Positions 2,996 through 20,337 of a DNA stretch of 64,000 nucleotides are shown piece by piece. How positions within the stretch are numbered: the stretch's first letter is position 1; every line of letters starts with the position of its first letter. The stretch is from sequence record OR455461.1. The stretch is one strand, 5' to 3'. Position numbers and translations under genes: made by a program. Source of the stretch: Staphylococcus phage AH12. The notes beneath the pieces are model-generated. The model was not told the origin of the DNA, searched no databases, and saw only the letters and a program-made list of their open reading frames with translations.

Positions 2996-3658
2996 ATGAT
3001 ATTAATGAAGCATTTTTACAATAAAAAAAGAAGTATTAATATTAATATAGAAAATTTATATTTAAATCATATTGATGTAATTAAACGTTACGATTTTGGT
3101 GATGAAGAATTACATCAAATGATTGATAGATTTTTACCTCAAGTAATTGAAGAATCTTATGAGTTTAATATTGAAATGTATAATTTATTAAAGACTGATA
3201 ATATTAAAGAACGCTATGAATTAACTTCATTAGCTTCTCTTGAATTATTAGATATAATTCTTTATTTCGTTTCTATAAATTCTACTTTAATTGAGAAGTA
3301 TAATTTAGAATACAAATATGTAATAGAGTTGAATGATTTAAATTTCAGTAAAGACTTTGTATTAAATACAGGTGAAAAAGTTAATGATGATAAATTCTAT
3401 CAAACAATAATTGATTCTGTAAGTAAAACAGTAGTTAATAACGGTGGTCATATAAGAAGATTAACTCCTAATAGAAAATATCATCAAGAGAATAAAGAAG
3501 TTAGTAAAAAAGAAATGAATCATATTATTGGTACTATTTTCTTTATTAATCATAGAACAATAGATTTCTTATTAACTGTATTATTTGAAAAACTATCTTT
3601 AGAAAAAGATGTAGATCCAATATTAGATAAAATTCAAGAAGTAGTTAAAAATAAATAA
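2996..3658 (+). CDS. hypothetical protein, 220 aa
   Basis: ORF track entry in the same operon as 2051..2983, followed by a strong terminator. Confidence 0.55.
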   Translation: MILMKHFYNKKRSININIENLYLNHIDVIKRYDFGDEELHQMIDRFLPQVIEESYEFNIEMYNLLKTDNIKERYELTSLASLELLDIILYFVSINSTLIEKYNLEYKYVIELNDLNFSKDFVLNTGEKVNDDKFYQTIIDSVSKTVVNNGGHIRRLTPNRKYHQENKEVSKKEMNHIIGTIFFINHRTIDFLLTVLFEKLSLEKDVDPILDKIQEVVKNK

Positions 3659-3663
3659 TTATT

Positions 3664-3737
3664 TTCCCTAACACTTATATTCCTTAAATGGAGTATTTGT
3701 GTTAGGGAAATTTTTGTTTTTTTTTTGTAAATTATTA
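3664..3737 (+). terminator. rho-independent terminator
   Basis: 11-bp stem TTCCCTAACAC / GTGTTAGGGAA followed by a long T-run. Confidence 0.65.
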
Positions 3738-3787: not shown

Positions 3788-6700
3788 GTGGTGAAATTAA
3801 AAGTAATGGATAATAATAAAAAGAATATAAAGAGACTAGAGAAAAATAACAATTCAGAGATAATTAAAAATGCTTCTAAAAATACTAGTCGTATTCTTTT
3901 CAATGCATTTATTAAATCAAATCCAGCACTAGATAGTGTTATTGGTTCTGATGGATTAAATTTAATGAATCAAGAAGAAAGAAGAATTAAAAATGTTTCT
4001 GAAATTAAATCTTCTACTAAGAATTTAATAAAAAGTATTAAATCTAGTTCAGAAGAAAATGATATATTTTCAGAAGAAAGTGAAAAACTATCAAATTCTA
4101 AACCTGAGTATGAGACAGTTACTGAAATAATTGATAATGATGATGGTACAAAATCTGAAATAATAAACGTTTCAGATAAAAAGAAATCTAGTCTAGTAAA
4201 TTCACCTTTAATTGCTTTTAATAATCTCGCTACGATTAACCAAAAAGGTTTTACAGGAACTAATATAGCTTTAAGAAATTTAGCGGTATCAAATGAAGCT
4301 ACAAGTACTTTAATGAATTCAGCAGTATTGAATTTAGAATCAATACAGAATTCTATATATCAAAATACTTTACTTGAAGAAAACACTAAAAGAGGAAAAC
4401 AGAGTAAATTATTTGAAATAGTTAATGGTAATATAAGTTTATTAAAATATTTAGACAATAAAACAAATATTGAAAATAATTCAATGATAAGTATGTTAGG
4501 TGGTTCTGAAGGACTTAAGAATATATTAATGGGATTTGCAAAAAATCCTATTGAATTAGCATTAACTACAGGTGCTCAAATGGGCATGAAGAAATTAATG
4601 TATGGAAGTACTTCAGGATATGATCCAGATGATGTTGAAAATAAAGGTATATTTAGTAGACTTAATAGAAAATTTGATCCTAATAATTTAGGTTCTTTAT
4701 TAGTAAGTGAACTGACTGATGATGAAGGAAGAATATCAAATACCCTAGATAAACTTAAAGGTAATGATAATAAATATATTTCTAATTTAGGAGAAGCACT
4801 TAATAAGAGAATCGGAAATTTAAAAGATAATGTTTTAAGTGATGGAACAATATCAACTAAGAATAAAAGAGATAAAAATACTCCAGTTCAATTTGATAGA
4901 GAAAGTCATACTTCTATTAATAAAGCTATACCAGATCTTTTATCTAGATTACAAGGTAATCTAATTGCTAGAAGAGAAGGAAAATCTAATGGTTTAGTTA
5001 ATAATAGCGAATTAGGTAGTATATATAACTATTCTAAAGGAACTTGGGATAGTAGAGGGAATAATAGAAAAAATATAAATGACAAATTAAAAGAAAAATC
5101 ATTATTTAATTTTAAAGATACTAAGTTAGGAAAAGATTTATCTAATAATGGTATTGAAGATGAAGAAGTTAAAGACATCTTATTCTCTTTAAGTAAAATT
5201 AATAAACCAGTAAAAAATAAAGATGAATTATCTAAATATACTAAAGATATAAATTATTCAGATATTGTTGAAAATATTTTCAATAATGATATATCTAAAT
5301 TTAATATTGATCTTTTTAATATTAAGAAATCAATAGGTACTGAGTATAACAAGATTGATAAAGATGGTTCATCATTAATGACATTTACAGATATTAAAGG
5401 TTTAAAAAGAAGAAATAATGAAGTTCAATCAAGTTCTGCTAGAGTAAATAAAATTAATGAAGTTAAAGATTATTCTAATATCGAATGGAAGAATGATGAT
5501 CTTGATGAACTTAAAAAATTATTCTTAGAAATAGAAAGTAAATTAGATGATATTAACCCAGAAAATATAAGCAATAATAAAGATTATGTAAATGATAAAA
5601 TAGGAAGAATTAATAGTATTATAGATTCTTCTAGTAAGTTTAATTTACCTAGCTATTTATCTAATGAAAAAACAAAATCAGTTCAAGACAAATTAGGTAA
5701 ACTATCAAACTCCGTTAATAAATTTAATGATATACGTAAAGATCCTTCATCTATTTTAAAAGGAAACACTTATAATGATAATAATAATGAAGATCTTAAT
5801 TCTGGGATCATAGATAATAACTATACAGATAATCATCCTTTAATGAATTTAATAAATAATATTAAAGGAAAACAGAGTAATAATAAAGTTGATTTAAATA
5901 AAGAACCAACTAAAAGCATTGATGATTTATCTAGAGAAGAAAAGCAATCTAAAGCTAGAAAGTATCTTGAAAATATAATTAGCACTGCTTATCCTAAGCA
6001 AAGTAAAACTATGATAAATGACATGAATCAATCTGATGATAATAAAAAATTAGATGAAATGAAAAAAGGTTTATCAACTGCAAATGCTGCTGAAACTGGT
6101 GAAGATGTTATATCAAAATTATCAGGATCTAGTAAAACAAAAGTTGCTGAAGATTTAAGAGGAACTCTTAAATTTGGTTCTGGTGGAGCTGCTGAAAAAG
6201 AAATGGGTACTAAAAAATTAATGAATTCAATGTTAGATTTTAGTAAACCAGGAACAATTGCCTTTGCAGGACTATCCGCTACTGTTTTAGCTAAATTAAT
6301 GAACGGTAAAAAGAAAAAAGATCAAGAAAAAGGTCTAATGGGTAGCGTTGGAACAGGATTAGGTTTCTTAGGTAAAGCTGGATTAATGTTAGGTGGAGGA
6401 GTTTTAGCTGCTAAATTCTTACCTAAACTCTTAGGTAAATTTTTACCTAAAGGTGCTATGAATATGTTTGATACAATTAAAAATTTACCTGGAAAATTAA
6501 AAGGAACTTTTGGTAAAGTTTTTGATGCCGGTAAAAATTTCTTCGGTAAAGGTAAAAACCTAATTGGAAAAGGATTAGGATTAGGTAAAAATATATTCGG
6601 TAAAGGAATTAAGTTAGGTAAAAATATCTTAGGAAAAGGTGCTCAATTAGGAAAATCTTTAATGGGTAAAGGATCTTTAGGATTAATTAAAGATGGTTTC

Positions 6701-9700
6701 GGTAAAGGTGCTTCTATAGCTAAAAGTGGATTTAATAAATTATTTAATCTTGGTGGTAAAAATTCTTTTGCAACTAAAGGTCTTCCTAAATCAGGTGGGA
6801 TTTTAGGAAAAGGATTAAGTAAAGCTGGTTCCATCGGTAAAGGTCTATTTAGCTCTATGAAAAATGGTGGTAAAAAAGCATTAGGTTTCTTAGGTAAAGC
6901 TAAAAATAAATTATTCAGTAAAGGCGGTATGAAAGCTGCTGGAAAATTTGCTTTAAAAGCTGGTCTAAAAACAGCATTACCTTTTATACCTGTTGTTGGA
7001 CCTATTATAGGTGCTGCAATGTGGGCACCAGATATTGTTAAAACTATAAAACACCCTATTGAATCTCTTAAACATCCAATTAAAACTTTAGGAAGCTTTT
7101 TCGGATTGTCTAAGCATCCAGGAGATACTCTTGAGGCTAAACAAAAAGAAGAAAAAGAAAATGAAGATGAAACAGGTTTAGGAAGATTAATATTATCTAC
7201 TTCTAAAATGATGTTTAGATCATCTCCTTTATTCCCAATTTCCAAAGTTGGAGGAGATATGTTTAAAACAATAACTGATAATAAAATGAAGTCAGGTCCT
7301 AAAGCTGAAGAAGAAATACAAGAAAATATGTTCTATGATACTCCTTTAGGTAGCCTATATCAAATGGCTAAAGGTGGTATAGATTTCTCTACTAAAGGTG
7401 GAGGAGAAATTGGCGACTGGTTTGCTAGATTTTTAGTTAAAATGGAAGGCATGGTTGTGGCTATGTCTAAAATGAAGAATTCTAGTTCAGGAGGAGATTC
7501 ATCTTCGTCTTCATCAGATAGTGGTAGTGGACAATTACAAGGTAATGAAATTGAAATAGATAAAAATGCACCTTCTATTACATCACAATCTGTATTGAGT
7601 AAAATACCTGATAATGCTGCAGGTGCTTGGATTAAGAAACATCAATTCTGGCAACCTTTCGGTAACTATCAAGGACTATCATTTAATGGTAGTTCAAAAC
7701 ACTGGGGTATTGATATTGGTATGCCTACAGGAACAGATATATTGGCTATTGTACCTGGTACAGTAAGTAATATAATTAAAGATGTTGGTGGAGGTAATAT
7801 CGTTGAGGTCAAAAACGGTAGTATCTACACTTGGTATATGCATAATAGTAAAATAATTGCTAAAAAAGGTGATAAAGTAGGAGTAGGTCAAAAAATTGCC
7901 ATATCTGGTAATACAGGTGCTCAAACTACTGCACCACATATGCACTTCCAGGTCATGAAAGGAAGACCTTCAAATGAAACTGCGATTGATCCAGCACCTT
8001 ATGTATTTGCTAAGGTAAAAGGTAAAGGTTCAGATGATGATGACAAGAGCAGTTCTAAAGGTGGAAGTAGTAAAAAAGGTGAAAAAGATAAAGGTGGAGG
8101 ACATTCACTAATAGGTGATATGAATTCTGTATCTATGCAAAGACAACTTAAGAAGAAAAATATTCAAGATATGCAGAATAAGAGAAAAGAAATTGCTCAA
8201 CAAAAGAGAGATCAAGATAAAATTGATACACAAATAAATAGAATTAATAAGCAAGATGATTATAAAGTTAAAGAAAAAGCTAAAAAAGTAAATAAAGTAT
8301 TTAATGCAATTAAAGAAAGTAAAGAGAAAAAACAAACTGGAATATTAAGATCATCAAATCAATTTAATAAAATTTTGATTATAGGTGATGAAATAACTAA
8401 AGATGCTTCAAATGATCTTAGAATTAAAATTAAAGGTGCTAAAATAGAAGCTTCTGTAGGAAAACAATATTCTGGTGGATCTGAATCTGGTAGAAGAATA
8501 TTACAAAATAATATTGATGAGTATAACAGAACCGGTGTAGCAATAGTTATCCAATTAGGTTTAAACGGAGGATTATCTACAGGAGAAATATCAGAAATAC
8601 AGAATATGTATGATAAAGCTAATGTATATTTCGTTAATACTTATTTCAATAGTAATAAAAATGGTACTAGTTTAGATTTAACTGATTTAATGAATGCAGT
8701 CAATGAATCAATTAATGCTAGTGCAGCTAATATAATTGACTGGTTTAGCAAAGCTAATTCTGTTTTAGTTAAAGAAGATGGATATATGCCAACAAATAAA
8801 GGTAGAATGATATTAGTAGATTTAATAAAAATGTATGTAAATCCTTATATTGGTGGTGGCGGTGCTTCTGATGATAAAAAAGCAGAAGAAAAAATTGATA
8901 AAGAAGTAGAAAAAGAAAAATCTAAAGCTGATAAAAAAGATAATAAAGATGAAGATGAAAAAGGATCTGAATCTAAAGTTTCTAAAGATGAAGATGGAGA
9001 ATCTTCTGATAGTGATAGTTCTGATTCTTCTTCAGGTGCCGGAGAGTACAGTTTCAAAAATGGTACTTGGTATGGCTCTATTACTGGTAGAGATGATAGA
9101 CGAATGGATGAAGAAGAGCAAGAAGAGCTTAATGATCGTTTAATGAAACGTTATGCTAAAATCTATGGAATTGACTATGAAGAAGCTAAGAAAATAGATA
9201 AGGAACAACAAGAAGAACTTAAAGCTAAAGCAGGTAAAGAAGCTACAGAATCTGGTTCTTCAAGTGGATCAAGTTCATCTAAAGATGGAGATGATAAAGA
9301 TTCAGGATCTTCTGCAAGTTCTTCTAAAGACAAAGCTAAAGAAAATATCGAAAAAGCAGGAAGTCAAATTTCCAAATTAGGTAATGGTTTCCAATTACCT
9401 ACATTAGAGAATAGTGGTTTTTCTAATACTAATAAAACAACACAAAATAATCAAGGCGATACAAGTAATAGTACAACAAATAATAATTATAATCAAGGTC
9501 AAGAAAGCACTGTTAATAATACTGATGTGAAACAAGAATTTGTAAAAGGTAAAAATAAAACTACAAATCATTATAATAAAATTGTAAATAATTATAAAAA
9601 TTCAACTGTGACTAATGGTAATACAGATTATGTATATGATTATGAGCAATATTGGTATTCAGATGACCTCGTTAAAATGTTGTCAAATATAGATAGAAAT

Positions 9701-9751
9701 ACATTAGCTTCTACTAAAGAATTAGATAGACTTTTAGAAGAATTAAAATAA
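3788..9751 (+). CDS. giant multidomain virion protein, 1987 aa, with M23 peptidase domain; tape-measure-like or ejection-protein-like
   Basis: M23/LytM signature HWGIDIG...HMHFQ, encoded about 7620..7975. Gly/Lys 11-aa tandem repeats. HPIESLKHPIKTLGSF module and a C-terminal acidic module, both shared with the next gene. GTG start at 3788; the ATG at 3806 with a GGTGGTGA RBS is an alternative start. Confidence 0.75.
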   Translation: MVKLKVMDNNKKNIKRLEKNNNSEIIKNASKNTSRILFNAFIKSNPALDSVIGSDGLNLMNQEERRIKNVSEIKSSTKNLIKSIKSSSEENDIFSEESEKLSNSKPEYETVTEIIDNDDGTKSEIINVSDKKKSSLVNSPLIAFNNLATINQKGFTGTNIALRNLAVSNEATSTLMNSAVLNLESIQNSIYQNTLLEENTKRGKQSKLFEIVNGNISLLKYLDNKTNIENNSMISMLGGSEGLKNILMGFAKNPIELALTTGAQMGMKKLMYGSTSGYDPDDVENKGIFSRLNRKFDPNNLGSLLVSELTDDEGRISNTLDKLKGNDNKYISNLGEALNKRIGNLKDNVLSDGTISTKNKRDKNTPVQFDRESHTSINKAIPDLLSRLQGNLIARREGKSNGLVNNSELGSIYNYSKGTWDSRGNNRKNINDKLKEKSLFNFKDTKLGKDLSNNGIEDEEVKDILFSLSKINKPVKNKDELSKYTKDINYSDIVENIFNNDISKFNIDLFNIKKSIGTEYNKIDKDGSSLMTFTDIKGLKRRNNEVQSSSARVNKINEVKDYSNIEWKNDDLDELKKLFLEIESKLDDINPENISNNKDYVNDKIGRINSIIDSSSKFNLPSYLSNEKTKSVQDKLGKLSNSVNKFNDIRKDPSSILKGNTYNDNNNEDLNSGIIDNNYTDNHPLMNLINNIKGKQSNNKVDLNKEPTKSIDDLSREEKQSKARKYLENIISTAYPKQSKTMINDMNQSDDNKKLDEMKKGLSTANAAETGEDVISKLSGSSKTKVAEDLRGTLKFGSGGAAEKEMGTKKLMNSMLDFSKPGTIAFAGLSATVLAKLMNGKKKKDQEKGLMGSVGTGLGFLGKAGLMLGGGVLAAKFLPKLLGKFLPKGAMNMFDTIKNLPGKLKGTFGKVFDAGKNFFGKGKNLIGKGLGLGKNIFGKGIKLGKNILGKGAQLGKSLMGKGSLGLIKDGFGKGASIAKSGFNKLFNLGGKNSFATKGLPKSGGILGKGLSKAGSIGKGLFSSMKNGGKKALGFLGKAKNKLFSKGGMKAAGKFALKAGLKTALPFIPVVGPIIGAAMWAPDIVKTIKHPIESLKHPIKTLGSFFGLSKHPGDTLEAKQKEEKENEDETGLGRLILSTSKMMFRSSPLFPISKVGGDMFKTITDNKMKSGPKAEEEIQENMFYDTPLGSLYQMAKGGIDFSTKGGGEIGDWFARFLVKMEGMVVAMSKMKNSSSGGDSSSSSSDSGSGQLQGNEIEIDKNAPSITSQSVLSKIPDNAAGAWIKKHQFWQPFGNYQGLSFNGSSKHWGIDIGMPTGTDILAIVPGTVSNIIKDVGGGNIVEVKNGSIYTWYMHNSKIIAKKGDKVGVGQKIAISGNTGAQTTAPHMHFQVMKGRPSNETAIDPAPYVFAKVKGKGSDDDDKSSSKGGSSKKGEKDKGGGHSLIGDMNSVSMQRQLKKKNIQDMQNKRKEIAQQKRDQDKIDTQINRINKQDDYKVKEKAKKVNKVFNAIKESKEKKQTGILRSSNQFNKILIIGDEITKDASNDLRIKIKGAKIEASVGKQYSGGSESGRRILQNNIDEYNRTGVAIVIQLGLNGGLSTGEISEIQNMYDKANVYFVNTYFNSNKNGTSLDLTDLMNAVNESINASAANIIDWFSKANSVLVKEDGYMPTNKGRMILVDLIKMYVNPYIGGGGASDDKKAEEKIDKEVEKEKSKADKKDNKDEDEKGSESKVSKDEDGESSDSDSSDSSSGAGEYSFKNGTWYGSITGRDDRRMDEEEQEELNDRLMKRYAKIYGIDYEEAKKIDKEQQEELKAKAGKEATESGSSSGSSSSKDGDDKDSGSSASSSKDKAKENIEKAGSQISKLGNGFQLPTLENSGFSNTNKTTQNNQGDTSNSTTNNNYNQGQESTVNNTDVKQEFVKGKNKTTNHYNKIVNNYKNSTVTNGNTDYVYDYEQYWYSDDLVKMLSNIDRNTLASTKELDRLLEELK
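6523..6900 (+). repeat. in-frame tandem repeats, 33 nt (11 aa), consensus L-G-K-N-I-x-G-K-G
   Basis: Visible periodicity, e.g. ttcggtaaaggaattaagttaggtaaaaatatc / ttaggaaaaggtgctcaattaggaaaatcttta. Coding, so not a CRISPR array. Confidence 0.6.
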
Positions 9752-9772
9752 AAAGAGTGGTGAGAATAAAAA

Positions 9773-12700
9773 TTGGCTAAAGATAAATTTAATACTAAGA
9801 AATTAGAAAGAGAGTTCAATAGGAACTCTTCTTCTAATTCTTCTAGAAAATATATTGATAATGAATTCAAAAAGAATTTAAATAGTATGAAATCAAACAA
9901 CATGAAAAAACTTATTGATAACAATAATCCTTTAAAAGCTATCAAAGAAGTTAAAGATAATAGAAAAGAACAATTTAAGAAATTAACTGAAACTGGAAAA
10001 GATTTGTCTAAAGAAGCTCTTAAAAGTACTAAAAGAACTTTAAAAACTGGTGAAACAATCATAGATAAAGAAGCTTTAAGTAAATCATCTAATTTAGATG
10101 GTGGAACAATGGGCATGGGCGATGATTTTGATTTCAGTAGCTTTGATGATCTTGATATGGGTGATGAAAATCTAGATAATGATGAAGTAGGAGATTTTTC
10201 TTTCGATGATTTTGATGAAGAAGAAAGTAATAAATCTGAAGTAATTTCATCAACAACAATAGTTAGTGATAATTCATCTTCAGCTAAATCTTCTGCTCTT
10301 TTAACTTCTTCTATATCTAATTTATCTCAAATTAATGCCACAGGTTTTAATAATTTGATGGAAACTCTTCATTATATGAGAGAAACTAATGATAATGTTA
10401 GAACGGATTTATTTGAAGGATTAACAGGTTTAATCAAAACTAGTAATGATATTAGAAGTAATACAACCGTAAAAAATATAAGTGAAATTAAAAATAGCAA
10501 TTCTTTAGAAGATTTGTTCTTATCTAATATAACTCTTTCTAATATATTAAGTGGTAGTAAAGAAACTGGTTTTAAAGATAAAGCTAAAGACTTTGCTAAA
10601 AAACAAGGTATTGAATTAATTAAAGATGTTATTGGGAGTAGGTCTAAAGGTATACAAGGTGGACTTTTAGATAGTGCTAAAGGCAAAGCTTTTGATATAC
10701 TAAACAGTGACAAACTTAGTGAAAAGCTAACAAATATGTCAACAGTATTTACTAAAGATGAAGATAAAAAAGGTAAGAAGAAAACCAATCGTGATTTCAT
10801 AGATAAACAGAAAAGCAAACTTATAGATAAATTATTTAATAATATAGATGGTGGAATTTCAACAGCAAATAAAAAGAATAAAAATGAAAAAGTAGCTTTT
10901 GATGTTGAAACCCATAGTACTATTAATACAGTTATTCCTGGTTATTTATCTAAAATAGTTGGTTTAACTTCTGAAGATGGTCAAGAAATTCACTATGATT
11001 ATGATTCAGGTTCATTTAAAACTTCTAAATCTATTAATGATGAAATTAAAAAATCTATAGATAGTACTATTGAAAGTTCTGAATTCTTCAAGAGAGTTGA
11101 AAGTAAAGCTAAAGATAAAAATATAGACTCTAAAGATTATAAATCATTAGTAAAGAATATTATTAGTGAAAATGTTAATAGTTCTAAAGATAGTGATAAA
11201 GTTAAAACTAAGTCATCTAATGTAAATAGTCTTTTAGAAGAGCTATTTGAAGATAAAGAAGTAAAAACTAGTTTAACTAAAGCTAGAATGCAATTGAATC
11301 AAAAATCTAAATCAATTAGAAAAAATCTTGGCGGAAGTACTATAAATGCAGTTAATGATAAAGGTCAAAAACCTAAGTCATATGCTTCTAAAGGTAACAA
11401 TGAATTTTCTGACATTAATTTTAATATTATCAATAGCGATATAAGTGAAATTAAAAATATTGTATCTAGAATAAATGATAAACTAGATGTAAGAAAAAAT
11501 AATCAACAATCTTCACAAAATGATAATAATAATATTGTATCTGGAGATAGTCAAAAACAAGATAGTAAATTTGATGAAATTAAAGAAAAATTGGATGATA
11601 TTAAAGATACTAAGTCTTCTAATTCTAATAATTCTTCTAATTCTAATAATGGAAATAATTTAAATAATAGAGATGAACAAAAATCTACTTTGATTCCAGA
11701 TAGTAATGAAGCTCATGCTTCTGAAGTAAGCAGACAACAAGAAGAAAAAGAAGATAATCCATTAAAAGATGAAATTAAAGATAAAATAGAAGAAAAAGCT
11801 AAAGATAAAATTAAAGATATTGATAAAGATAAACTTAAAAGAAAAGTATTAGATAGTAAAATGGCTAATACTAAAATTGGTAAAAGTGTTATAGGTGCTG
11901 GTGAATCACTTGCCGGTAAATTTGCTGCTGGTGGAGCTTTGTTATCTGGTGCTGGAAGAGGATTACGTTCTAAACTAAGAAATAAAGCTAAAGGTAAATT
12001 TGGTGCAAGTAAAGTTGGAAGTAAATTAATGGGATCTAGAGTTGGTAAAGGTATAGCTAAAGCTGGTTTGAAAGTAGGTTCAAGAGTAGGACTAGCTGCA
12101 ACTGGTGTAGGATTACCTTTATCTATACTATTGTCTGCTCCTGAAATAATGAGTACTATAGCACATCCGATTGAATCTCTTAAACATCCAATTAAAACTT
12201 TAGGAAGCTTTATAGGTTTTAATGATCACCCTGCAAAACAGAAAAAAGAACAAGAAAAATTAGATTCAGAACAACCTAATGGTGAAAATGCTAAATTTAG
12301 TGTTGATCCTTTAATTGATTCTAAATTAACTGGTGATAAAGATAGTTCTTCATTAATTGGAAGTTTTATTAAAGACAATCCTTTATTAGCTCAAGTTCCT
12401 TTAATGGGATTAGCTGGAGTTGGACTTTATAAAGGAATTGTAAAACCTGCTTTCGGTCTAGGTATGAATATGGTACAGAAAACTACTGGAATGGCTAAAG
12501 GATTTGGTGATTCTACTGATAGTATGATGGAAGAAAAATCTGGCGGTTTTGGTGGTTTAATTAAAAAAGCTGTAGGTGGAGCTTCAATGTTATTAATGGC
12601 ACCTTTAGCTATGGCTGGAAAAGGAATTAGTAACATGGTAGGAGCTACTTCTAATCTTATTCAAGGTGGAATAGGCTTAGCTAAAAACTTATCAGGATTC

Positions 12701-15523
12701 CTTGATGACAAATTTTCTTCTCATGAAGAAGATATGTCTAATCAAAGTCGTGAAATGGTAGAAGCTAGTAAAGAAGAATTAGGTTCTTATCAAGAAGGTA
12801 TTGAAGATCATGCATCTGAAAGAGCTAAAAAAGAAATGGCTGAAATGCAAGGAATGTCTGATAAAGCTAGTAAAGATGCTAAAAAACAAGTAGAAGATTC
12901 AACTAATAAAACTAAAGATAGTATCGAGAAAGATGTTAATGGAGTGATGAAAAATTCTCCTTTATCTATCATGGGTAAAATTAGTGAAAAAATGCATAAA
13001 ATGATGCCTAATAATTTAATGAGTAAACTTAAAAAAGCTCCTAAAAAATTGGCTGAAACTATGTTAAGATTATCTCCTTTCTATTCTTTATTAAGTAAAA
13101 AGAAAAAGAAAAAATCTAAAAAAGATATAACTGATCCTGATGGTGAAGTAGTAAACAAAATTGGTGATTGGTTTGATAAACTTGGCGGAATGATGAACGA
13201 TATTATGGCAGGATTCATGGCCGGTTCATCAGGAAGTTCTTCTTCAGAAGGATCATCTGATGGAGGAGCAGAAAGTGTTGATGGTAAAGATGTTGCATCT
13301 AAAGTATGGAATTTCTTTGCTGAAAAGGGGTTAGAAGATCATCAAATAGCAGGTATATTAGGTAACTTTGAACGTGAATCCAAAATGGATCCTGGTGCTG
13401 AACAAAACTCTGGATGGGTTGGAGGTAAAGGGCTAGCTCAATGGGATGACCGTAAAGATAATCTTAAAGCATTTGCTGAAAAGAAAGGTAAGAAATGGTC
13501 TGACCTTGATGCTCAGTTAGACTTCATGTGGTATGAACTTCAAGGATCTGAATCTGCTGCTTGGTCTGCTATTAAGAAAGCTAAAAATGTTGATGAAGCA
13601 ACAGTTGTATGGGAGAATTTATATGAACGTGCAGGAGTTAAAGTTATTCCTGAAAGACAATCAAACGCTAAAAAATGGTTAGATAAACTAGGGGGTTCAT
13701 CTAAGAAATCCACTAAAGCTAAAGGTGGAGGTTCTAGTACTGTTTATAGTGATACGAACGTTAATCAATTTGCAAATATGGTATCATCTACATCTAATAA
13801 AAATAAAAAAGTTGGAAAAACTGGTTTAGTTTTAGAAAAACCTACTATTACTGGTGGAGTTTATGGTAAAGGTGGAGGTGGAGGATCCGGTGGATCTGAA
13901 AAAGATAAAATTAAACAAGCTGTACAATGGGCAATAGCTCAAGACGGTGCAACATACTCTCAGTCAAATAGACAAGGTAAAAATTCATTTGACTGTTCTA
14001 GTTTAATTGCTCGTTCATTTAAAAAAGCTGGTTTAGAAATGGATATTAATGCTACCACTTTTACTTTTAGAGATGGTGGTACTAAATTTAGAAAAATAAG
14101 TAAAGGTACTAAGAAAAAAATTGGTGATATTACTTTATGTGATAACGATAACCATGTTACTATGTATATAGGTGGAGGAAAACAAGTTGAATCATATTAT
14201 GGTCATGGTGTTGCTGTAACTCCTGCAAATAAATACCAAAAAATGGGATTACAAATTGGTATTACAATGAGATATGGCGGCGGTGGTCCTGATGATACAG
14301 GCAAACCTCTAGATGGTAGTGATAAAATAGGTGGAAGCGATAATGAAGGAGGAGACTCTAACGGTTCTTCTGCTGGAGCTTCTGAATATAGTTTCAAAAA
14401 TGGTACTTGGTACGGTTCTATTACTGGTAGAGATGATAACCGTATGGATGAAGAAGAACAAGAAGCTTTAAATGATAGATTAATGAAACGTTATGCTAGA
14501 ATTTATGGAATTGACTATGAAGAAGCTAAGAAAATAGATGAAGAACAACAGGCTGAACTTAAAGCTAAAGCAGGTAAGGAAGCTACTGAATCTGGAGCTT
14601 CAAGTGGATCAAGTTCATCATCTGACGGTTCAGAAGGGTCATCTGGCAAAGATGGTTCTGATGGAAAAGATGGTAAAGACGGTTCATCACCTTCATATAG
14701 TTCTGGAGCTGATGGTGACAATCAATCATCTTCAGGAAGTCAAGGAAATGTTAATAATAACCAAAATAATTCTAGTATAATTAATAATGGAGGAAACAAT
14801 AGTTCTACGGTTATTAATAATAATTATAATAATGGTAAGCCTACAACTAATAATAACTCTATTACAAATCAAACTATACAAGGCAACAATAATACAGTAA
14901 GAAATATCTATAATATTACTAATAATTATAATAATTCTAAAGTAAATTATGAAAATAAAGGACCTATGAAAGTAGATCCACAAAAACGTATGGATTTAGA
15001 TAATATAATTAAACATACAAGTAATATTGATAAAAATACTGCCAAAATGTTAGAACAACTTAAAGATATGTCCTTTAAAGGTAAAAATATTAATAAAGAT
15101 GGAAATACAACAAATATTTCTAATACTATTATTAATAATAAAGGTGATTTAGTAGATTCTAAAGGTAATGTAATTATTAAAGATATTCAAAAAGAGCTTG
15201 AAAAAATTATTAAAGAAAATCCTAATATTATTAATAATGGTTCTAATGGTCAAAATGGTTCTAATGGATCTAATGGTTCTAATGGAAATAGTAACAATAA
15301 TAATGGAAATGATAATCAATCAAATCCTAATAATCCTAATGATCCAAACAATTCTAATAATCCAAATAATCCTAATGATCCAAATAATCCTTATACTCCT
15401 GATGGTTCAAGTCAAGATCCATCTACAGGTAATCAGGATTTACAAGAAGCAATTAGAGATTCTTATGGAGATAGATTTGTTATTGACGTTAGACCAGCTA
15501 TACCTGTTTTCTCAGGAAAATAA
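9773..15523 (+). CDS. giant multidomain virion protein, 1916 aa, with tail-lysozyme-like and NlpC/P60 domains; paralog of the preceding gene
   Basis: TTG start with a GGTGAG RBS. GILGNFERES...AQWD lysozyme-like block about 13290..13690. DCSSLIARSF...DNDNHVTMYIGG Cys/His NlpC/P60-type block about 13900..14270. Shares an EYSFKNGTWYGSITGRDD...KAKAGKEATESG module and an HPIESLKHPIKTLGSF module with gene 3788..9751. Confidence 0.75.
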   Translation: MAKDKFNTKKLEREFNRNSSSNSSRKYIDNEFKKNLNSMKSNNMKKLIDNNNPLKAIKEVKDNRKEQFKKLTETGKDLSKEALKSTKRTLKTGETIIDKEALSKSSNLDGGTMGMGDDFDFSSFDDLDMGDENLDNDEVGDFSFDDFDEEESNKSEVISSTTIVSDNSSSAKSSALLTSSISNLSQINATGFNNLMETLHYMRETNDNVRTDLFEGLTGLIKTSNDIRSNTTVKNISEIKNSNSLEDLFLSNITLSNILSGSKETGFKDKAKDFAKKQGIELIKDVIGSRSKGIQGGLLDSAKGKAFDILNSDKLSEKLTNMSTVFTKDEDKKGKKKTNRDFIDKQKSKLIDKLFNNIDGGISTANKKNKNEKVAFDVETHSTINTVIPGYLSKIVGLTSEDGQEIHYDYDSGSFKTSKSINDEIKKSIDSTIESSEFFKRVESKAKDKNIDSKDYKSLVKNIISENVNSSKDSDKVKTKSSNVNSLLEELFEDKEVKTSLTKARMQLNQKSKSIRKNLGGSTINAVNDKGQKPKSYASKGNNEFSDINFNIINSDISEIKNIVSRINDKLDVRKNNQQSSQNDNNNIVSGDSQKQDSKFDEIKEKLDDIKDTKSSNSNNSSNSNNGNNLNNRDEQKSTLIPDSNEAHASEVSRQQEEKEDNPLKDEIKDKIEEKAKDKIKDIDKDKLKRKVLDSKMANTKIGKSVIGAGESLAGKFAAGGALLSGAGRGLRSKLRNKAKGKFGASKVGSKLMGSRVGKGIAKAGLKVGSRVGLAATGVGLPLSILLSAPEIMSTIAHPIESLKHPIKTLGSFIGFNDHPAKQKKEQEKLDSEQPNGENAKFSVDPLIDSKLTGDKDSSSLIGSFIKDNPLLAQVPLMGLAGVGLYKGIVKPAFGLGMNMVQKTTGMAKGFGDSTDSMMEEKSGGFGGLIKKAVGGASMLLMAPLAMAGKGISNMVGATSNLIQGGIGLAKNLSGFLDDKFSSHEEDMSNQSREMVEASKEELGSYQEGIEDHASERAKKEMAEMQGMSDKASKDAKKQVEDSTNKTKDSIEKDVNGVMKNSPLSIMGKISEKMHKMMPNNLMSKLKKAPKKLAETMLRLSPFYSLLSKKKKKKSKKDITDPDGEVVNKIGDWFDKLGGMMNDIMAGFMAGSSGSSSSEGSSDGGAESVDGKDVASKVWNFFAEKGLEDHQIAGILGNFERESKMDPGAEQNSGWVGGKGLAQWDDRKDNLKAFAEKKGKKWSDLDAQLDFMWYELQGSESAAWSAIKKAKNVDEATVVWENLYERAGVKVIPERQSNAKKWLDKLGGSSKKSTKAKGGGSSTVYSDTNVNQFANMVSSTSNKNKKVGKTGLVLEKPTITGGVYGKGGGGGSGGSEKDKIKQAVQWAIAQDGATYSQSNRQGKNSFDCSSLIARSFKKAGLEMDINATTFTFRDGGTKFRKISKGTKKKIGDITLCDNDNHVTMYIGGGKQVESYYGHGVAVTPANKYQKMGLQIGITMRYGGGGPDDTGKPLDGSDKIGGSDNEGGDSNGSSAGASEYSFKNGTWYGSITGRDDNRMDEEEQEALNDRLMKRYARIYGIDYEEAKKIDEEQQAELKAKAGKEATESGASSGSSSSSDGSEGSSGKDGSDGKDGKDGSSPSYSSGADGDNQSSSGSQGNVNNNQNNSSIINNGGNNSSTVINNNYNNGKPTTNNNSITNQTIQGNNNTVRNIYNITNNYNNSKVNYENKGPMKVDPQKRMDLDNIIKHTSNIDKNTAKMLEQLKDMSFKGKNINKDGNTTNISNTIINNKGDLVDSKGNVIIKDIQKELEKIIKENPNIINNGSNGQNGSNGSNGSNGNSNNNNGNDNQSNPNNPNDPNNSNNPNNPNDPNNPYTPDGSSQDPSTGNQDLQEAIRDSYGDRFVIDVRPAIPVFSGK
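15232..15400 (+). repeat. coding micro-tandem repeats (NGS x n; NPNNPND x n)
   Basis: Repeats of aatggttct and aatcctaat(gat) at the 3' end of the gene. Confidence 0.5.
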
Positions 15524-15566
15524 TATTTTGATGCAACATAAATTTATAGTAAATAAATTAAATTGG

Positions 15567-15607
15567 GGATATGACATTTATTATGTGTCATATCCTCTTT
15601 ATTATTT
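15567..15607 (+). terminator. rho-independent terminator
   Basis: Stem GGATATGACA / TGTCATATCC followed by TCTTTATTATTT. Confidence 0.55.
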
Positions 15608-15625: not shown

Positions 15626-17101
15626 TTGGCTGAAGAAAAAGATAAAAAAGAGTCTAAAGAACAAGAACCTTTAAAAGTTGCTGACGATGATATGGCTTTA
15701 ATACCTCAAGCTGATGAGAAAAAAGGTGATTATGACTATCATGAATATGATCCTACTCAAAAAGATACTGGTGCTTTTATGGATGCTTTGGGTAATCAAA
15801 GACAAGCAACTGAATATTTAACAGATAAAAATGCTAAAGATAAAAAACAATTAAGAAATGTTAAAGGTGAACTAGATGTATTTGGAATGCCTATGTACTA
15901 TTCTAGTTTAGATGATCCTAATAGAAGAATATATAAAAGAACATTTGAATTAGATTTACCTTTAGTATTTATAATGCCGGGTATGCCTAAATTAAATGGT
16001 AAATTATTTGGTAAACCAGGAGAAGGTAAATTATGGAGTTTTGGTGAAGGAATGGATAGATTAGTAAACTCTGGGTTATCTTTAGTTGGTATCGGTAATA
16101 CTAAAGATGGTCGTATGATAAGCTTTGAACCTAAAATGGCTGAATATTATAAATATGTACAAACTATGGCTTCTCAAGTTCATGCATCAATGGGATTAAA
16201 AGGATCATTTGATCTAGGTGGATCTCTACAAGATGATAAAAACTATGGACTAGCTTACTATGCAGATAAATCAACTAGTATATCAGAATCTGCAATGCAT
16301 GAATATAATCAATCTGATATTGCTTCTCAAGTTAATAATAAAAACCAAGAAATACGAGAACAAAAAGAAATGGCTCGTATTGGAGGAGCTTCTATTTTAG
16401 GTAAAATTACAAGATCTATTAAAGATAGTGTTAATGATATGGTAGCAAATATGCCAGTTATTGGTGGTATTGTAGGTAACTTTATGGAACATTTAGATGG
16501 TGCAAGTATGTACTATCCCGATGTATGGATGAACTCGACATTCGATAGAACTTATAATCTAGAATTTAAATTCTATAGTGCTTATGGAGATCCTCAATCT
16601 ATCTTTGATAATGTATATTTACCATTCTTGTCACTATTAGTTTTAGCATTACCATTACAAGACTCAATTTTCTCTTATAAGCAACCATTTATTATTAGAG
16701 CTAATTGTCCTGGTAGATTTGAATGTAACACAGGTATAATAACTTCAATGAATATAGTTCGTGGTGAAGAGGGTACATGGACTGCAGATGGTTTCCCAAG
16801 AGAAATTACTGTATCTATTAATATTAGAGATATGTATCCAAACTTAATGGCATCAAAATCATTCCAACGTATGAAATTTAACACAGGATTATTATCTTAT
16901 ATTGATTGCTTAGCCGGAATTAGAAGGGATCAACTATCTATTATTGATAAAGCTCAAATTAATATGAAAACTCAATACTCTAGAAGTATGCAGGTAATTA
17001 AAGGAAGAGTCTTTCAACAACAAATTGATGATGCAATCTATGGATATAAATCCCAATATAATCCTCATCCAAATAGCCCGGGATTGAATATGTTTACTTA
17101 A
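15626..17101 (+). CDS. hypothetical structural protein, 491 aa
   Basis: TTG start with an AAAGGAAG RBS. Lies in the tail/virion module downstream of the giant proteins. Confidence 0.55.
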   Translation: MAEEKDKKESKEQEPLKVADDDMALIPQADEKKGDYDYHEYDPTQKDTGAFMDALGNQRQATEYLTDKNAKDKKQLRNVKGELDVFGMPMYYSSLDDPNRRIYKRTFELDLPLVFIMPGMPKLNGKLFGKPGEGKLWSFGEGMDRLVNSGLSLVGIGNTKDGRMISFEPKMAEYYKYVQTMASQVHASMGLKGSFDLGGSLQDDKNYGLAYYADKSTSISESAMHEYNQSDIASQVNNKNQEIREQKEMARIGGASILGKITRSIKDSVNDMVANMPVIGGIVGNFMEHLDGASMYYPDVWMNSTFDRTYNLEFKFYSAYGDPQSIFDNVYLPFLSLLVLALPLQDSIFSYKQPFIIRANCPGRFECNTGIITSMNIVRGEEGTWTADGFPREITVSINIRDMYPNLMASKSFQRMKFNTGLLSYIDCLAGIRRDQLSIIDKAQINMKTQYSRSMQVIKGRVFQQQIDDAIYGYKSQYNPHPNSPGLNMFT

Positions 17102-19298: not shown

Positions 19299-19304
19299 AA
19301 TATA

Positions 19305-19343
19305 TCCCCTAACACATTTATTTGTGTTAGGGGATTTTTATTG
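19305..19343 (+). terminator. rho-independent terminator
   Basis: Stem ATCCCCTAACACA / TGTGTTAGGGGAT followed by a T-run. Confidence 0.65.
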
Positions 19344-19349
19344 CTAAAA

Positions 19350-20156: not shown

Positions 20157-20274
20157 AGATTATTTTCTCCTTTTCATAAATATTTATCCATAATGATATA
20201 TAATAAAGAGTTTATATAAACTTCATATTAGTATAAATAATTATAAGATAATATCTTTTATATTTTAAAATTTA

Positions 20275-20315
20275 TATAAATAAAAAATAGGATACGACTT
20301 ACATTGTCGTATCCT
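20275..20315 (-). terminator. rho-independent terminator or attenuator after the sheath gene
   Basis: Stem AGGATACGAC / GTCGTATCCT with a T-run on the minus strand (A-run 20278-20288 on the plus strand). Confidence 0.5.
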
Positions 20316-20337
20316 ATAATGGGTTTATATTAAACTA

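What the first reader, a model, noticed from the sequence alone, without database searches (positions are those of the whole stretch)
3788..15523. Two tandem paralogous giant virion proteins carrying four different cell-wall hydrolase domains
Adjacent genes of 1987 and 1916 codons share at least two modules. One is a hydrophobic-helix module ending HPIESLKHPIKTLGSF, encoded at about 7000..7110 and 12120..12230. The other is an acidic module of roughly 85 aa, EYSFKNGTWYGSITGRDD(R/N)RMDEEEQE...KAKAGKEATESG, at about 9040..9290 and 14385..14640.

Between them the two proteins carry an M23/LytM peptidase domain (HWGIDIG...HMHFQ), an SGNH-like block (IIGDEIT...LGLNGG) whose nucleophile Ser is replaced by Glu, a tail-lysozyme-like domain (GILGNFERES) and an NlpC/P60-type Cys/His domain (DCSSLIARSF...NHVTMYIGG).

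They are transcribed divergently from the sheath and tube genes, and no other tape-measure candidate is obvious. They may be a duplicated tape-measure or ejection-protein pair that punctures Gram-positive-type peptidoglycan. Duplication followed by domain swapping in such a large gene is unusual.
Basis: partly seen in the sequence, partly recalled or inferred. Interest (0 to 1): 0.7.

Follow-up and report, generated by a model that had tools for sequence, protein, structure and literature searches.

The report
Duplicated giant tail lysin / tape-measure genes
A giant Staphylococcus phage carries two tandem copies of the huge tail protein that relatives such as phiKZ have once; each copy holds different cell-wall-cutting enzymes, and the gene pair itself has already been noted in print.

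Summary
The window comes from a Staphylococcus jumbo phage, 96% identical to PB50 and Machias. The two ORFs are real and are paralogs.

Domains:
- A has an intact LytM/lysostaphin-type M23 domain. It also has an SGNH domain closest to the S. aureus OatA C-terminal O-acetyltransferase domain, with both the catalytic Ser (to Glu) and His (to Met) lost.
- B has a phi29-gp13-like lysozyme domain and an intact NlpC/P60 domain.

Family: both carry an N-terminal module shared with Bacillus phage AR9 gp203, Goslar gp204 and phiKZ gp181. Both lie just upstream of a homolog of phiKZ gp182 / Goslar gp203, the tail-tube initiator. They therefore belong to the phiKZ-gp181 family of tail-associated muralytic putative tape-measure proteins.

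Duplication: every non-staphylococcal relative sampled has one such gene, and all nine staphylococcal jumbo phages have two. The duplication is old. The ~75-aa acidic module shows concerted evolution.

Corrections: the pair converges on the tube and sheath genes rather than diverging from them. Enzyme-cassette swapping is the norm in this family. Korn et al. already reported two potential tape-measure proteins. No available proteomics detects either protein.

Verdict: a modest new variant of a known kind.

The parts
3664..3726 (+). Terminator-like hairpin and T-run between the upstream gene (stop at 3658) and gene A. It marks the 5' boundary of the A-B unit.
   Evidence: Read from the sequence. 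Terminators are annotated at the same place in Machias and MarsHill. The pattern scan missed it because the loop is long.
3788..9751 (+). Gene A, giant protein of 1987 codons from GTG 3788 (probable start ATG 3806, 1981 aa). The PB50 and Machias orthologs are annotated 'tape measure protein'.
4805..5095 (+). N-module of A (V.FD..sH..IN..IP..LS...Y.Y..G). It carries a 12-aa insertion that is absent from B and from single-copy relatives.
   Evidence: BLASTP, HMM, alignment A3. The module is also found in AR9 gp203, BpSp gp263, LPJP1, Goslar gp204 and phiKZ gp181.
6550..6655 (+). Tandem repeat of 33 nt (11 aa), GKNILGKGIKL x ~3-4, inside the Lys/Gly-rich basic region of A (about aa 800-1100).
   Evidence: TRF, translation, composition
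6965..7099 (+). Single TM-like hydrophobic helix of A (aa 1060-1084), followed by the invariant motif HPIESLKHPIKTLGSF (7052-7099).
   Evidence: Hydropathy, BLASTP, blastn 89% identity to the B copy, conserved in all staphylococcal orthologs
7697..7993 (+). Peptidase M23 domain of A, LytM/lysostaphin type, with HxxxD (HWGID) and HxH (HMHF) intact.
   Evidence: Pfam E 4e-22. PDB matches: 5KQB 4e-27, LytM 7e-26, lysostaphin 5e-19. Motifs checked. The nearest phage relatives lie inside the tape-measure proteins of staphylococcal siphophages.
8336..8866 (+). OatA-C-terminal-like SGNH domain of A. It is catalytically dead: block I is GDE (Ser to Glu) and block V is DGYMP (His to Met). The block III Asn is kept.
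   Evidence: PDB 6WN9 E 2e-9 / profile 2.5e-43. AF2 pLDDT 90 with Foldseek top hit 6WN9. Of 44 representative homologs with a full-length domain match (46 hits), 42 have GDS. Lineage distribution.
9025..9279 (+). Acidic module C of A (EYSFKNGTWYGSITGRDD.RMDEEEQE...KAKAGKEATESG).
   Evidence: blastn 87.5% identity to the B copy, 88% aa identity, concerted-evolution signal
9575..9748 (+). C-terminal module of A (Cend), homologous to B aa 1715-1764.
   Evidence: BLASTP, HMM
9773..15523 (+). Gene B, giant protein of 1916 aa with a TTG start. It is in the same frame as A, separated by three in-frame stops, and has an RBS similar to A's. Orthologs are annotated 'tail lysin'.
10814..11095 (+). N-module of B. 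It lacks A's insertion and is the copy closer to AR9, BpSp and LPJP1.
12086..12211 (+). TM-like hydrophobic helix of B (aa 772-790) and the motif HPIESLKHPIKTLGSF (12164-12211).
13292..13690 (+). Phage_lysozyme2 domain of B (GILGNFERES), related to the N-terminal lysozyme domain of phi29 gp13.
   Evidence: Pfam E 2e-40, PDB 3CSQ 1e-6. The nearest phage relatives lie inside the tape-measure proteins of Twort and SPbeta-like staphylococcal phages.
13910..14230 (+). NlpC/P60 (also matching Amidase_5) cysteine peptidase domain of B. The Cys (FDCSS) and His (NHVTMYIG) are present.
   Evidence: Pfam 30.9 bits against a cut-off of 23. PDB matches: CwlO and the diffocin hub-hydrolase 8V3W. Motifs checked.
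14365..14619 (+). Acidic module C of B.
14915..15064 (+). Cend module of B.
15065..15520 (+). B-specific C-terminal extension, Asn/Pro-rich with 9-nt repeats (NGS and NPN units at 15235-15400). The SA1 ortholog is collagen-like here.
15565..15597 (+). Intrinsic-terminator-like hairpin (13 pairs, T-run) just after gene B. It marks the 3' boundary of the A-B unit.
   Evidence: terminators are annotated at this place in Machias and MarsHill
15626..17101 (+). Conserved neighbour, a 491-aa protein homologous to AR9 gp204, phiKZ gp182 and Goslar gp203 (the tail-tube initiator seen by cryo-EM).
   Evidence: tblastn, BLASTP 4e-14 / 2e-14, Goslar structure text

Best explanation
Genes A and B are tandem paralogs. 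They arose by duplicating the single giant 'gp181-type' gene that phiKZ-like and PBS1/AR9-like jumbo myophages carry immediately upstream of their tail-tube-initiator gene.

Both copies keep the same scaffold, in this order:
- an N-terminal ~430-aa region containing the family-wide N-module;
- a basic Lys/Gly-rich amphipathic stretch, with 11-aa repeats in A;
- one hydrophobic helix followed by the motif HPIESLKHPIKTLGSF;
- an enzyme cassette flanked by Ser/Gly/Asp linkers;
- an acidic module C;
- a short C-terminal module.

The cassettes differ:
- A carries a Gly-Gly-endopeptidase-type M23 domain plus an OatA-like SGNH domain. In this phage lineage the SGNH domain has lost its Ser and His and is most likely a non-catalytic, wall-binding or purely structural module.
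- B carries a muramidase-type lysozyme domain plus an NlpC/P60 peptidase.

Inferred mechanism. Both proteins are built into the tail, inside the tube and anchored at the hub end by the shared C-terminal modules. This is by analogy with phiKZ gp181, which is reported as a virion murein hydrolase and a likely tape measure. On sheath contraction they are expelled. The three active domains cut the glycan strand, the stem peptide and the pentaglycine bridge of the thick staphylococcal wall. The hydrophobic and basic region engages the membrane.

Module C is kept nearly identical in the two paralogs by repeated gene conversion. This suggests that both must fit the same partner, or each other.

Shown: paralogy, family membership by sequence and synteny, domain identities and catalytic-residue states, lineage-specific duplication, and concerted evolution of module C.
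Inferred: virion location, a length-ruler role, co-residence in one tail, and substrate bonds.
For: - Paralogy: three collinear significant matches, similar N-termini and RBSs, and module HMMs that hit only A and B in the six-frame window.
- Family: the N-module HMM hits AR9 gp203 (2e-9), BpSp gp263 (1e-7), LPJP1 (6e-12), Goslar gp204 (4.6e-10) and phiKZ gp181 (1.6e-8). These E-values are for small targeted searches.
- Synteny: the downstream 491-aa protein matches phiKZ gp182 and Goslar gp203. Goslar gp203 is a tube-initiator protein by cryo-EM.
- Copy number: one giant gene in AR9, BpSp, LPJP1 and six further IMG/VR relatives. Two in all nine staphylococcal jumbo phages.
- Enzyme domains. 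The M23 and lysozyme cassettes are closest to those embedded in the tape-measure proteins of other staphylococcal phages.
- Other tape-measure-like traits: an 11-aa tandem repeat, one TM-like helix per protein, and the MarsHill annotation notes and Korn et al. text on alpha-helical content.
- Co-transcription: terminator-like hairpins flank the A-B pair.
- Age and conversion: in the N-module core, informative sites split 16-25 by paralog against 0-1 by genome. In module C they split 2-5 by paralog against 5-10 by genome in five of six clade pairs.
Against: - No experimental evidence places A or B in particles. The SA1 virion LC-MS/MS table lists both ORFs without peptides, although it also lists none for the tail fibres. 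The shallow DC4 set did not find them either.
- The BpSp proteome did not list gp263.
- No canonical tape-measure model in Pfam, NCBIfam or PHROGs matches the non-enzymatic parts. PHROG 'tape measure' hits cover only the enzyme domains.
- At 1.5 Å per residue, ~1900-2000 aa would give ~290 nm, longer than the reported 233-237 nm tails. The simple ruler relation therefore does not hold without discounting the globular domains.
- phiKZ gp181 has also been described as a baseplate cell-puncturing device rather than a tube-lumen ruler.
- Co-residence of both paralogs in one tail is purely inferential. A rough volume estimate allows 3+3 copies (~53% of a 4-nm-wide lumen) but not 6+6.
Confidence: 0.65

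Rival explanations
1. The published annotation is correct as written. A alone is the tape measure inside the tube. B is a separate baseplate or hub 'tail lysin', like the tail-associated lysins of Twort/K-like phages, and does not occupy the lumen.
For: GenBank annotations for PB50, Machias and MarsHill and the reasoning in Korn et al.. The NlpC/P60 domain of B resembles the diffocin hub-hydrolase 8V3W. phiKZ gp181 has itself been placed at the baseplate.
Against: A also carries lytic domains (M23), so the annotation criterion is arbitrary. B shares every scaffold module with A. B, not A, is the copy closer to the single-copy proteins of AR9, BpSp and LPJP1. Its N-module lacks A's insertion and its BLAST E-values are better. 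LPJP1's C-terminus has the same order, NlpC/P60 followed by a module-C-like helix, as B.
Confidence: 0.2
2. A and B are head-packaged ejection (inner-body-type) proteins. They leave through the tail after contraction and are not tail components.
For: phiKZ-like phages package many large proteins in the head (general knowledge). Neither protein was seen in two tail-containing virion proteomes, so their location is open.
Against: The genes lie between terminators in a tail-gene neighbourhood, directly upstream of the tube-initiator homolog and converging on tube and sheath. The family member phiKZ gp181 is described as tail-associated. The enzyme cassettes are closest to those inside tape-measure proteins.
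Confidence: 0.07
3. The two paralogs are alternatives, not partners. Each tail contains a homo-oligomer of either A or B, or one copy is largely redundant. This would give a mixed particle population with different wall-degrading abilities.
For: Both have complete scaffolds and could in principle each replace the single ancestral protein. Lengths are similar, 1981 and 1916 aa. The shared docking modules would allow either to assemble.
Against: Both genes are intact and retained in all nine staphylococcal jumbo genomes, across clades only 55-63% identical. The two appear to form one terminator-bounded transcription unit. The enzyme sets are complementary rather than redundant. None of this excludes the model.
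Confidence: 0.08

Closest known systems
phiKZ gp181 (2237 aa; virion-associated peptidoglycan hydrolase, likely tape measure) and Goslar gp204
   Same: Giant size, the N-module (HMM E 1.6e-8 / 4.6e-10 in a targeted search), a muralytic domain in the C-terminal third, and a position immediately upstream of the gp182 / Goslar-gp203 tube-initiator gene.
   Different: Those phages have a single copy, with a lytic-transglycosylase or lysozyme-type domain for Gram-negative hosts. They lack the HPIES motif and acidic module C. Sequence similarity outside the N-module is not detectable.
Bacillus phage AR9/PBS1 gp203 and BpSp gp263 (annotated tail tape measure protein); the split ORFs 97-99 of Listeria phage LPJP1
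   Same: Closest phage group, with the same gene order (giant gene, then the gp204 homolog), the N-module, and weak similarity in the hydrophobic helix. LPJP1 also has NlpC/P60 followed by a module-C-like helix.
   Different: They have one gene, not two. The cassette is T6SS_VgrG3-like_C (plus NlpC/P60 in LPJP1) rather than M23+SGNH or lysozyme2+NlpC/P60.
Tape-measure proteins with embedded muralytic domains in staphylococcal siphophages and myophages (phi12, 3A, 47, Twort, SPbeta-like) and T5 Pb2
   Same: The M23 domain of A is 46-52% identical, and the lysozyme domain of B 48-55% identical, to domains embedded in those tape-measure proteins. The concept is the same: a tube-lumen protein that digests wall on ejection (T5 Pb2 is listed).
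   Different: There is no detectable homology outside the enzyme domains, and those proteins are single genes of ~1000-2000 aa. The canonical tape-measure models that name those proteins do not hit A or B.
phi29 gp13 (tail-knob protein with N-terminal lysozyme and C-terminal LytM-type M23 domains)
   Same: The same pair of activities, lysozyme-like plus M23. The lysozyme domain of B matches gp13 (PDB 3CSQ, E 1e-6).
   Different: In phi29 both domains sit in one 365-aa protein. Here they are split between two ~2000-aa paralogs.
C-terminal SGNH domain of peptidoglycan O-acetyltransferase OatA (S. aureus 6WN9/6VJP; S. pneumoniae 5UFY/5UG1)
   Same: Fold and sequence family (profile E 2.5e-43, Foldseek TM 0.70-0.79). 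GD of block I, LGxNG of block III and DG of block V are conserved.
   Different: It is not fused to an AT3 membrane domain. The catalytic Ser and His are replaced (Glu/Met here and in SA1, Asp/Thr in LY01). The MarsHill/S6 clade keeps Ser and His.

Membership tests
phiKZ gp181 / AR9 gp203-type giant tail-associated muralytic (putative tape-measure) protein | Conserved N-module (V.FD..tH..I...IP..L...Y.Y..G) about 350-550 aa from the N-terminus | tested here: met
   Present in both A and B. An HMM built from the staphylococcal copies hits AR9, BpSp and LPJP1. An HMM built from alignment A3 hits phiKZ gp181, Goslar gp204 and six further IMG/VR giants plus AR9 itself. E-values are for small targeted searches.
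phiKZ gp181 / AR9 gp203-type giant tail-associated muralytic (putative tape-measure) protein | Gene lies immediately upstream of the gp182 / Goslar-gp203 (tail-tube initiator) homolog | tested here: met
   The order is A-B-491-aa protein. The 491-aa protein matches phiKZ gp182 (4e-14) and Goslar gp203 (2e-14). The tube-initiator role comes from the Goslar cryo-EM text.
phiKZ gp181 / AR9 gp203-type giant tail-associated muralytic (putative tape-measure) protein | About 1700-2700 aa with peptidoglycan-degrading domain(s) in the C-terminal third | tested here: met
phiKZ gp181 / AR9 gp203-type giant tail-associated muralytic (putative tape-measure) protein | Physically present in the virion tail | not testable with these tools
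   The published SA1 and DC4 LC-MS/MS data list no peptides for either protein, but coverage is poor.
Tape measure protein in the functional sense (tail-length ruler) | Protein length determines tail length, and the protein occupies the tube lumen | not testable with these tools
   Only indirect traits are available: an 11-aa repeat, a TM-like helix, and no other candidate in the window. The length is ~25% too long for a 235-nm tail at 1.5 Å per residue.
Canonical tape-measure sequence families (Pfam, NCBIfam and PHROG tape-measure models) | Significant match of the non-enzymatic scaffold to a curated tape-measure model | tested here: not met
   No tape-measure model hit in Pfam or NCBIfam. 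PHROG tape-measure hits cover only the M23 and lysozyme regions. The scaffold segments alone give nothing.
Peptidase M23 (LytM/lysostaphin-type glycyl-glycine endopeptidase) | Pfam match above the gathering score, with Zn-ligand motifs HxxxD and HxH | tested here: met
   78.5 bits against a cut-off of 28.7. HWGID and HMHF are present. LytM E 7e-26 and lysostaphin 5e-19. Bond specificity was not tested.
SGNH hydrolase / OatA C-terminal domain | SGNH fold and sequence-family match | tested here: met
SGNH hydrolase / OatA C-terminal domain | Catalytic Ser in block I (GDS) | tested here: not met
   GDE in the window, PB50, Machias and SA1; GDD in LY01; GDS in MarsHill, Madawaska, S6 and PALS_2 and in 42 of 44 representative homologs.
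SGNH hydrolase / OatA C-terminal domain | Catalytic His in block V (DxxH) | tested here: not met
   DGYMP here, against DG(V/I)H(P/L) in homologs.
Phage_lysozyme2 (PF18013) | Pfam match above the gathering score and a conserved Glu in the N-terminal (E-S) motif | tested here: met
   138.6 bits against a cut-off of 28.2. GILGNFERES aligns with GMLGNMQSES of phi29 gp13. That this Glu is catalytic rests on my memory of the gp13 literature.
NlpC/P60 (PF00877) | Pfam match above the gathering score, with catalytic Cys and His | tested here: met
   30.9 bits against a cut-off of 23. FDCSS and NHVTMYIG align with the Cys and His of CwlO. The third triad residue was not examined.

The most novel reading that the evidence does not exclude
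The two paralogs co-assemble as a hetero-oligomeric tape measure or ejection complex in every tail. Module C, kept near-identical by gene conversion, would be the shared docking or oligomerisation element at the hub. The OatA-derived SGNH domain would have been converted from an esterase/transferase (still intact in the MarsHill/S6 clade) into a non-catalytic reader of staphylococcal glycan strands. To my knowledge a tape measure made of two different proteins has not been described.
Probability: 0.3. Interest if true: 0.65.

Novelty: new variant of a known kind. Interest (0 to 1): 0.4.

Why it matters
- It re-reads a published annotation. 'Tape measure protein + tail lysin' in staphylococcal jumbo phages is really two paralogs of one phiKZ-gp181-type gene, and the copy called 'tail lysin' is the more ancestral-looking one.
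- If both sit in one tail, this would be a natural case of a two-protein tape measure. It would also show how a phage extended its wall-degrading repertoire by gene duplication rather than by adding domains to one protein.
- The pair offers three apparently active staphylolytic domains as enzybiotic leads.
- It also offers a natural active/dead series of an OatA-like SGNH domain: MarsHill/S6 against the PB50/Machias/SA1/LY01 lineages. This could show whether removal of peptidoglycan O-acetyl groups, or binding to them, matters during infection of a lysozyme-resistant host.
- The N-module plus synteny links the PBS1/AR9-like Gram-positive jumbo phages to phiKZ-like phages at the tail-lumen and hub genes.

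Tried and rejected
- The search for homologous proteins with the SGNH segment returned nothing. The exhaustive representative search then found 46 relatives.
- Pfam alone does not see the SGNH domain, even at E<10.
- A profile of the N-module against the PDB gave only noise.
- PHROGs on the scaffold-only segments gave nothing below E 0.02.
- NCBIfam gave only enzyme-domain hits.
- AlphaFold on module C with a two-sequence alignment gave a low-confidence beta-hairpin plus two helices (pLDDT 64.5). I did not use it for fold search.
- A neighbour-joining tree of module C was unresolved, with bootstraps of 25-69%. The quartet site counts with the N-module as control were more informative.
- The two small upstream genes (2051..2983, 2996..3658) are not paralogs of each other and match no family. 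There is therefore no evidence of a duplicated chaperone pair.
- A read-through fusion of A and B was considered because they share a frame. I rejected it because three in-frame stops lie between them.
- Recent capture of the SGNH domain from host OatA was considered and rejected. Identity to S. aureus OatA is only ~24-30%. Closer relatives (34-40%) sit in other large mobile-element-type proteins, and the same domain co-occurs with M23/NlpC/P60 or lysozyme2 elsewhere.
- The Lavysh et al. AR9 paper could not be read. Whether AR9 gp203 was detected in virions therefore remains unknown to me.
Full report
**Identity of the window**

The 11.7-kb region is 95.7% identical at the nucleotide level to Staphylococcus phage vB_StaM_PB50 and 96% to Machias. 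It is more distantly related to S6, PALS_2, DC4, MarsHill, Madawaska, LY01 and SA1. These are ~260-275-kb jumbo myophages related to Bacillus phages PBS1/AR9. In PB50 and Machias the two genes are annotated 'tape measure protein' and 'tail lysin'.

**The observation**

Two ORFs, 3788..9751 and 9773..15523, lie head to tail on the + strand. BLASTP between them gives three collinear significant matches:
- the hydrophobic-helix + HPIESLKHPIKTLGSF module (E 2e-18);
- the C-terminal region, including the acidic module (E 7e-45).

A longer but weaker alignment covers B147-427 / A115-436. At the DNA level only the two short modules are recognisable, at 87.5% identity over 255 nt and 89% over 65 nt.

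Several details indicate that a whole gene was duplicated:
- The N-termini are similar. The window's A has MDNNKKNIKRLE, orthologs of A have (L)AKNN-type starts, and B has LAKDKFNTKKLE.
- The RBSs are similar, GAGCGGTGGTGA and GAGTGGTGA.
- HMMs of the four modules hit nothing else in the six-frame translation of the window.

**Enzyme domains**

- A carries Peptidase_M23 (Pfam E 4e-22). Its best solved relatives are a staphylococcal M23 domain (5KQB), LytM and lysostaphin, and the HxxxD and HxH motifs are intact.
- B carries Phage_lysozyme2 (E 2e-40), related to the lysozyme domain of phi29 gp13.
- B also carries NlpC/P60 above the Pfam cut-off, with its Cys and His present.

- The single sequence matches the C-terminal SGNH domain of S. 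aureus peptidoglycan O-acetyltransferase OatA (6WN9/6VJP) at E 2e-9. A 12-sequence profile matches it at 2.5e-43, and the pneumococcal OatA domain at 3.5e-14.
- An AlphaFold model built on 33 homologs has pLDDT 90. Its top Foldseek hits are the OatA domain (TM 0.70/0.79), followed by many SGNH esterases.
- Of 44 representative homologs with a full-length domain match, out of 1.84 billion proteins searched, 42 have GDS. Only the phage itself (GDE) and one other protein (GDN) do not, and His is at least 90% conserved in the 33-sequence alignment.
- Within the phage group, MarsHill, Madawaska, S6 and PALS_2 keep GDS, and MarsHill, the one checked in alignment, also keeps the block V His (GVHP). 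The window, PB50, Machias and SA1 have Glu/Met. LY01 has Asp/Thr.
- The domain is about as conserved between lineages (41-59% identity) as the rest of the protein (55-62%). It is therefore retained without its catalytic residues.
- The same domain type occurs with M23+NlpC/P60 and with Phage_lysozyme2 in unrelated large proteins. This suggests it is a recurrent accessory of muralytic proteins.

**Context**

- The pair is bounded by terminator-like hairpins at 3664-3726 (read by eye, and annotated in relatives) and at 15565-15597.
- Downstream on the same strand are a 491-aa protein and a 720-aa protein.
- After these comes a bidirectional terminator (19304-19335). The tube (PF23806) and sheath genes follow on the opposite strand.
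- The pair therefore converges on tube and sheath.
- The only other giant ORF in the window (49539..58169, 2876 aa) is a tail-fibre / receptor-binding type.

**Relatives**

All nine staphylococcal jumbo phages have both genes, of similar sizes and in the same order.

Relatives outside staphylococci have one giant gene:
- AR9 and BpSp have a single giant gene (1925 and 1797 aa) at the equivalent position, directly upstream of the homolog of the 491-aa protein.
- Listeria phage LPJP1 has one gene-sized stretch split into three ORFs.
- A scan of IMG/VR with the N-module found seven loci, one of them AR9 itself. Each has a single giant ORF of 1681-2669 aa.
- The 491-aa protein is homologous to phiKZ gp182 and to Goslar gp203. 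The Goslar cryo-EM study identifies gp203 as part of the tail-tube initiator complex.
- The genes just upstream in those phages, phiKZ gp181 (2237 aa) and Goslar gp204 (2252 aa), carry the N-module (HMM E 1.6e-8 and 4.6e-10 in a targeted search).
- phiKZ gp181 is described as a virion-associated murein hydrolase. [quoted passage not shown]

A and B are therefore both members of the gp181 family, and the duplication is specific to the staphylococcal lineage among everything sampled.

The enzyme cassette differs from member to member:
- VgrG3-like_C in AR9 and BpSp;
- VgrG3-like_C + NlpC/P60 in LPJP1;
- M23 + VgrG3-like_C in L009;
- VanY + SLT in L013.

Cassette exchange is therefore the rule in this family, not a peculiarity of this pair. 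The M23 and lysozyme domains here are closest (46-55% identity) to domains embedded in the tape-measure proteins of other staphylococcal phages.

**Which copy is 'the' ortholog?**

B looks closer to the single-copy ancestor:
- The N-module of B lacks a 12-aa insertion that A has, and it gives better scores to AR9, BpSp and LPJP1.
- LPJP1's C-terminus has NlpC/P60 followed by a module-C-like helix, as B does.

The labels 'tape measure' for A and 'tail lysin' for B are thus not supported by the sequence.

**Age of the duplication and concerted evolution**

- In an ungapped 81-nt core of the N-module, informative sites in four-sequence comparisons (A and B from two clades) group by paralog 16-25 times and by genome 0-1 times. 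The duplication therefore predates the split of the four clades.
- In the 186-nt core of module C the pattern is reversed in five of six clade pairs: 5-10 sites by genome, 2-5 by paralog and 1-3 crosswise. The excess of by-genome over crosswise sites is nominally significant in two pairs, uncorrected for the six tests (P 0.006 and 0.03).
- Within-genome A-B nucleotide identity in module C (80-89%) equals or exceeds that between orthologs of different clades (72-88%).
- This is the signature of gene conversion, or at least of tightly coupled co-evolution. The region is short and its tree is unresolved, so I rate this as supported rather than proven.

**Mechanism**

What the sequence shows directly:
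- Each paralog has a long N-terminal part.
- Then comes a basic Lys/Gly-rich segment, which in A has an 11-aa tandem repeat, a periodicity known from tape-measure proteins.
- Then come one TM-like helix, the enzyme cassette, and shared C-terminal modules.

What I infer, by analogy with gp181 and with tape measures that carry muralytic domains:
- Both proteins are assembled inside the tail, with the C-terminal end at the hub.
- They are expelled on contraction.
- They open the thick, pentaglycine-cross-linked, O-acetylated staphylococcal wall with three complementary activities.
- The dead SGNH domain would act as a binding or structural module in this lineage. It may be an esterase in the MarsHill/S6 clade.

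Whether both paralogs share one tail is unknown. A rough volume estimate allows 3+3 copies (about half of a 4-nm lumen over 235 nm) but not 6+6.

**Weaknesses**

- I found no proteomic evidence for either protein in particles. The SA1 table lists both without peptides, but it also lists none for the tail fibres. The DC4 set is very shallow, and BpSp gp263 was not listed either.
- No curated tape-measure model matches the scaffold.
- The proteins are longer than the 233-237-nm tail requires.
- The gp181 literature is itself divided between 'puncturing device' and 'tape measure'.

**Novelty**

The existence of two tape-measure candidates, the PF18013/PF00877 domains and the M23 domain are already published. 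The following were not reported in the papers I could read:
- explicit paralogy and placement in the gp181 family;
- restriction of the duplication to the staphylococcal lineage;
- concerted evolution of module C;
- the OatA-like SGNH domain and its lineage-specific loss of catalytic residues.

This is a new variant of a known kind, of moderate interest.

Noticed in passing
window 49539..58169 (+): A third giant ORF (2876 aa) with PHROG hits to tail proteins, PblB-type receptor binding and host-range/adsorption proteins. Only the first ~57-60% matches PB50, Machias, S6 and PALS_2 at the DNA level, so the C-terminal part (likely receptor-binding) differs from the closest known phages.
   Followed up: partly
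L002 (Machias) 17825-20942, compared with window 15626..17101: In Machias the homolog of the 491-aa tube-initiator-like gene is annotated as two exons interrupted by a 'transposase' (noted HHpred hit to CasX, TnpB-like). The window and PB50 have an uninterrupted gene. AR9 gp204 is likewise joined from three pieces.
   Followed up: no
L007 (Listeria phage LPJP1) 10789-15375: The LPJP1 counterpart of the giant gene is annotated as three ORFs (565, 269 and 594 aa) with a ~300-nt gap. This could be frameshifts, sequencing errors, an intron, or a genuinely split gene.
   Followed up: no
proteins P0002, P0003, P0007, P0008, P0011: The OatA-like SGNH domain recurs in other large proteins. Two have a signal peptide + SGNH + multiple TM helices + a ~900-aa coiled-coil-like Gln/Ala-rich tail (P0002, P0003). 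Two have M23-SGNH-NlpC/P60 (P0007, P0008). One has SGNH-Phage_lysozyme2 (P0011). All have intact GDS and His. Their genomic context was not examined.
   Followed up: partly
window 9749-9775: A and B are in the same reading frame, separated by three in-frame stop codons (TAA, TGA, TAA) within 24 nt. The RBSs of the two genes are near-identical.
   Followed up: yes
window 6001-8000 and 12001-14000: G+C rises to 0.33-0.34 against ~0.23-0.29 elsewhere. This coincides with the Gly/Ala/Lys-rich hydrophobic regions and the enzyme cassettes, and is probably a compositional effect of Gly/Ala codons. It also produces long spurious ORFs on the opposite strand (for example 6643..7245 -).
   Followed up: partly
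window 15235-15400; L003 (SA1) gene B C-terminus: The B-specific C-terminal tail is built of 9-nt repeats (NGS and NPN/NPD units). The SA1 ortholog gives a weak collagen-repeat hit (E 0.0018, below cut-off). This tail varies between phages.
   Followed up: no
window 2051..2983 and 2996..3658 (+); 17136..19298 (+): Three conserved neighbours have no family match in Pfam or PHROGs, apart from a sub-threshold histone-fold hit (E 0.004) in the 310-aa protein. Whether the two upstream ones act as assembly chaperones for A and B is unknown.
   Followed up: partly
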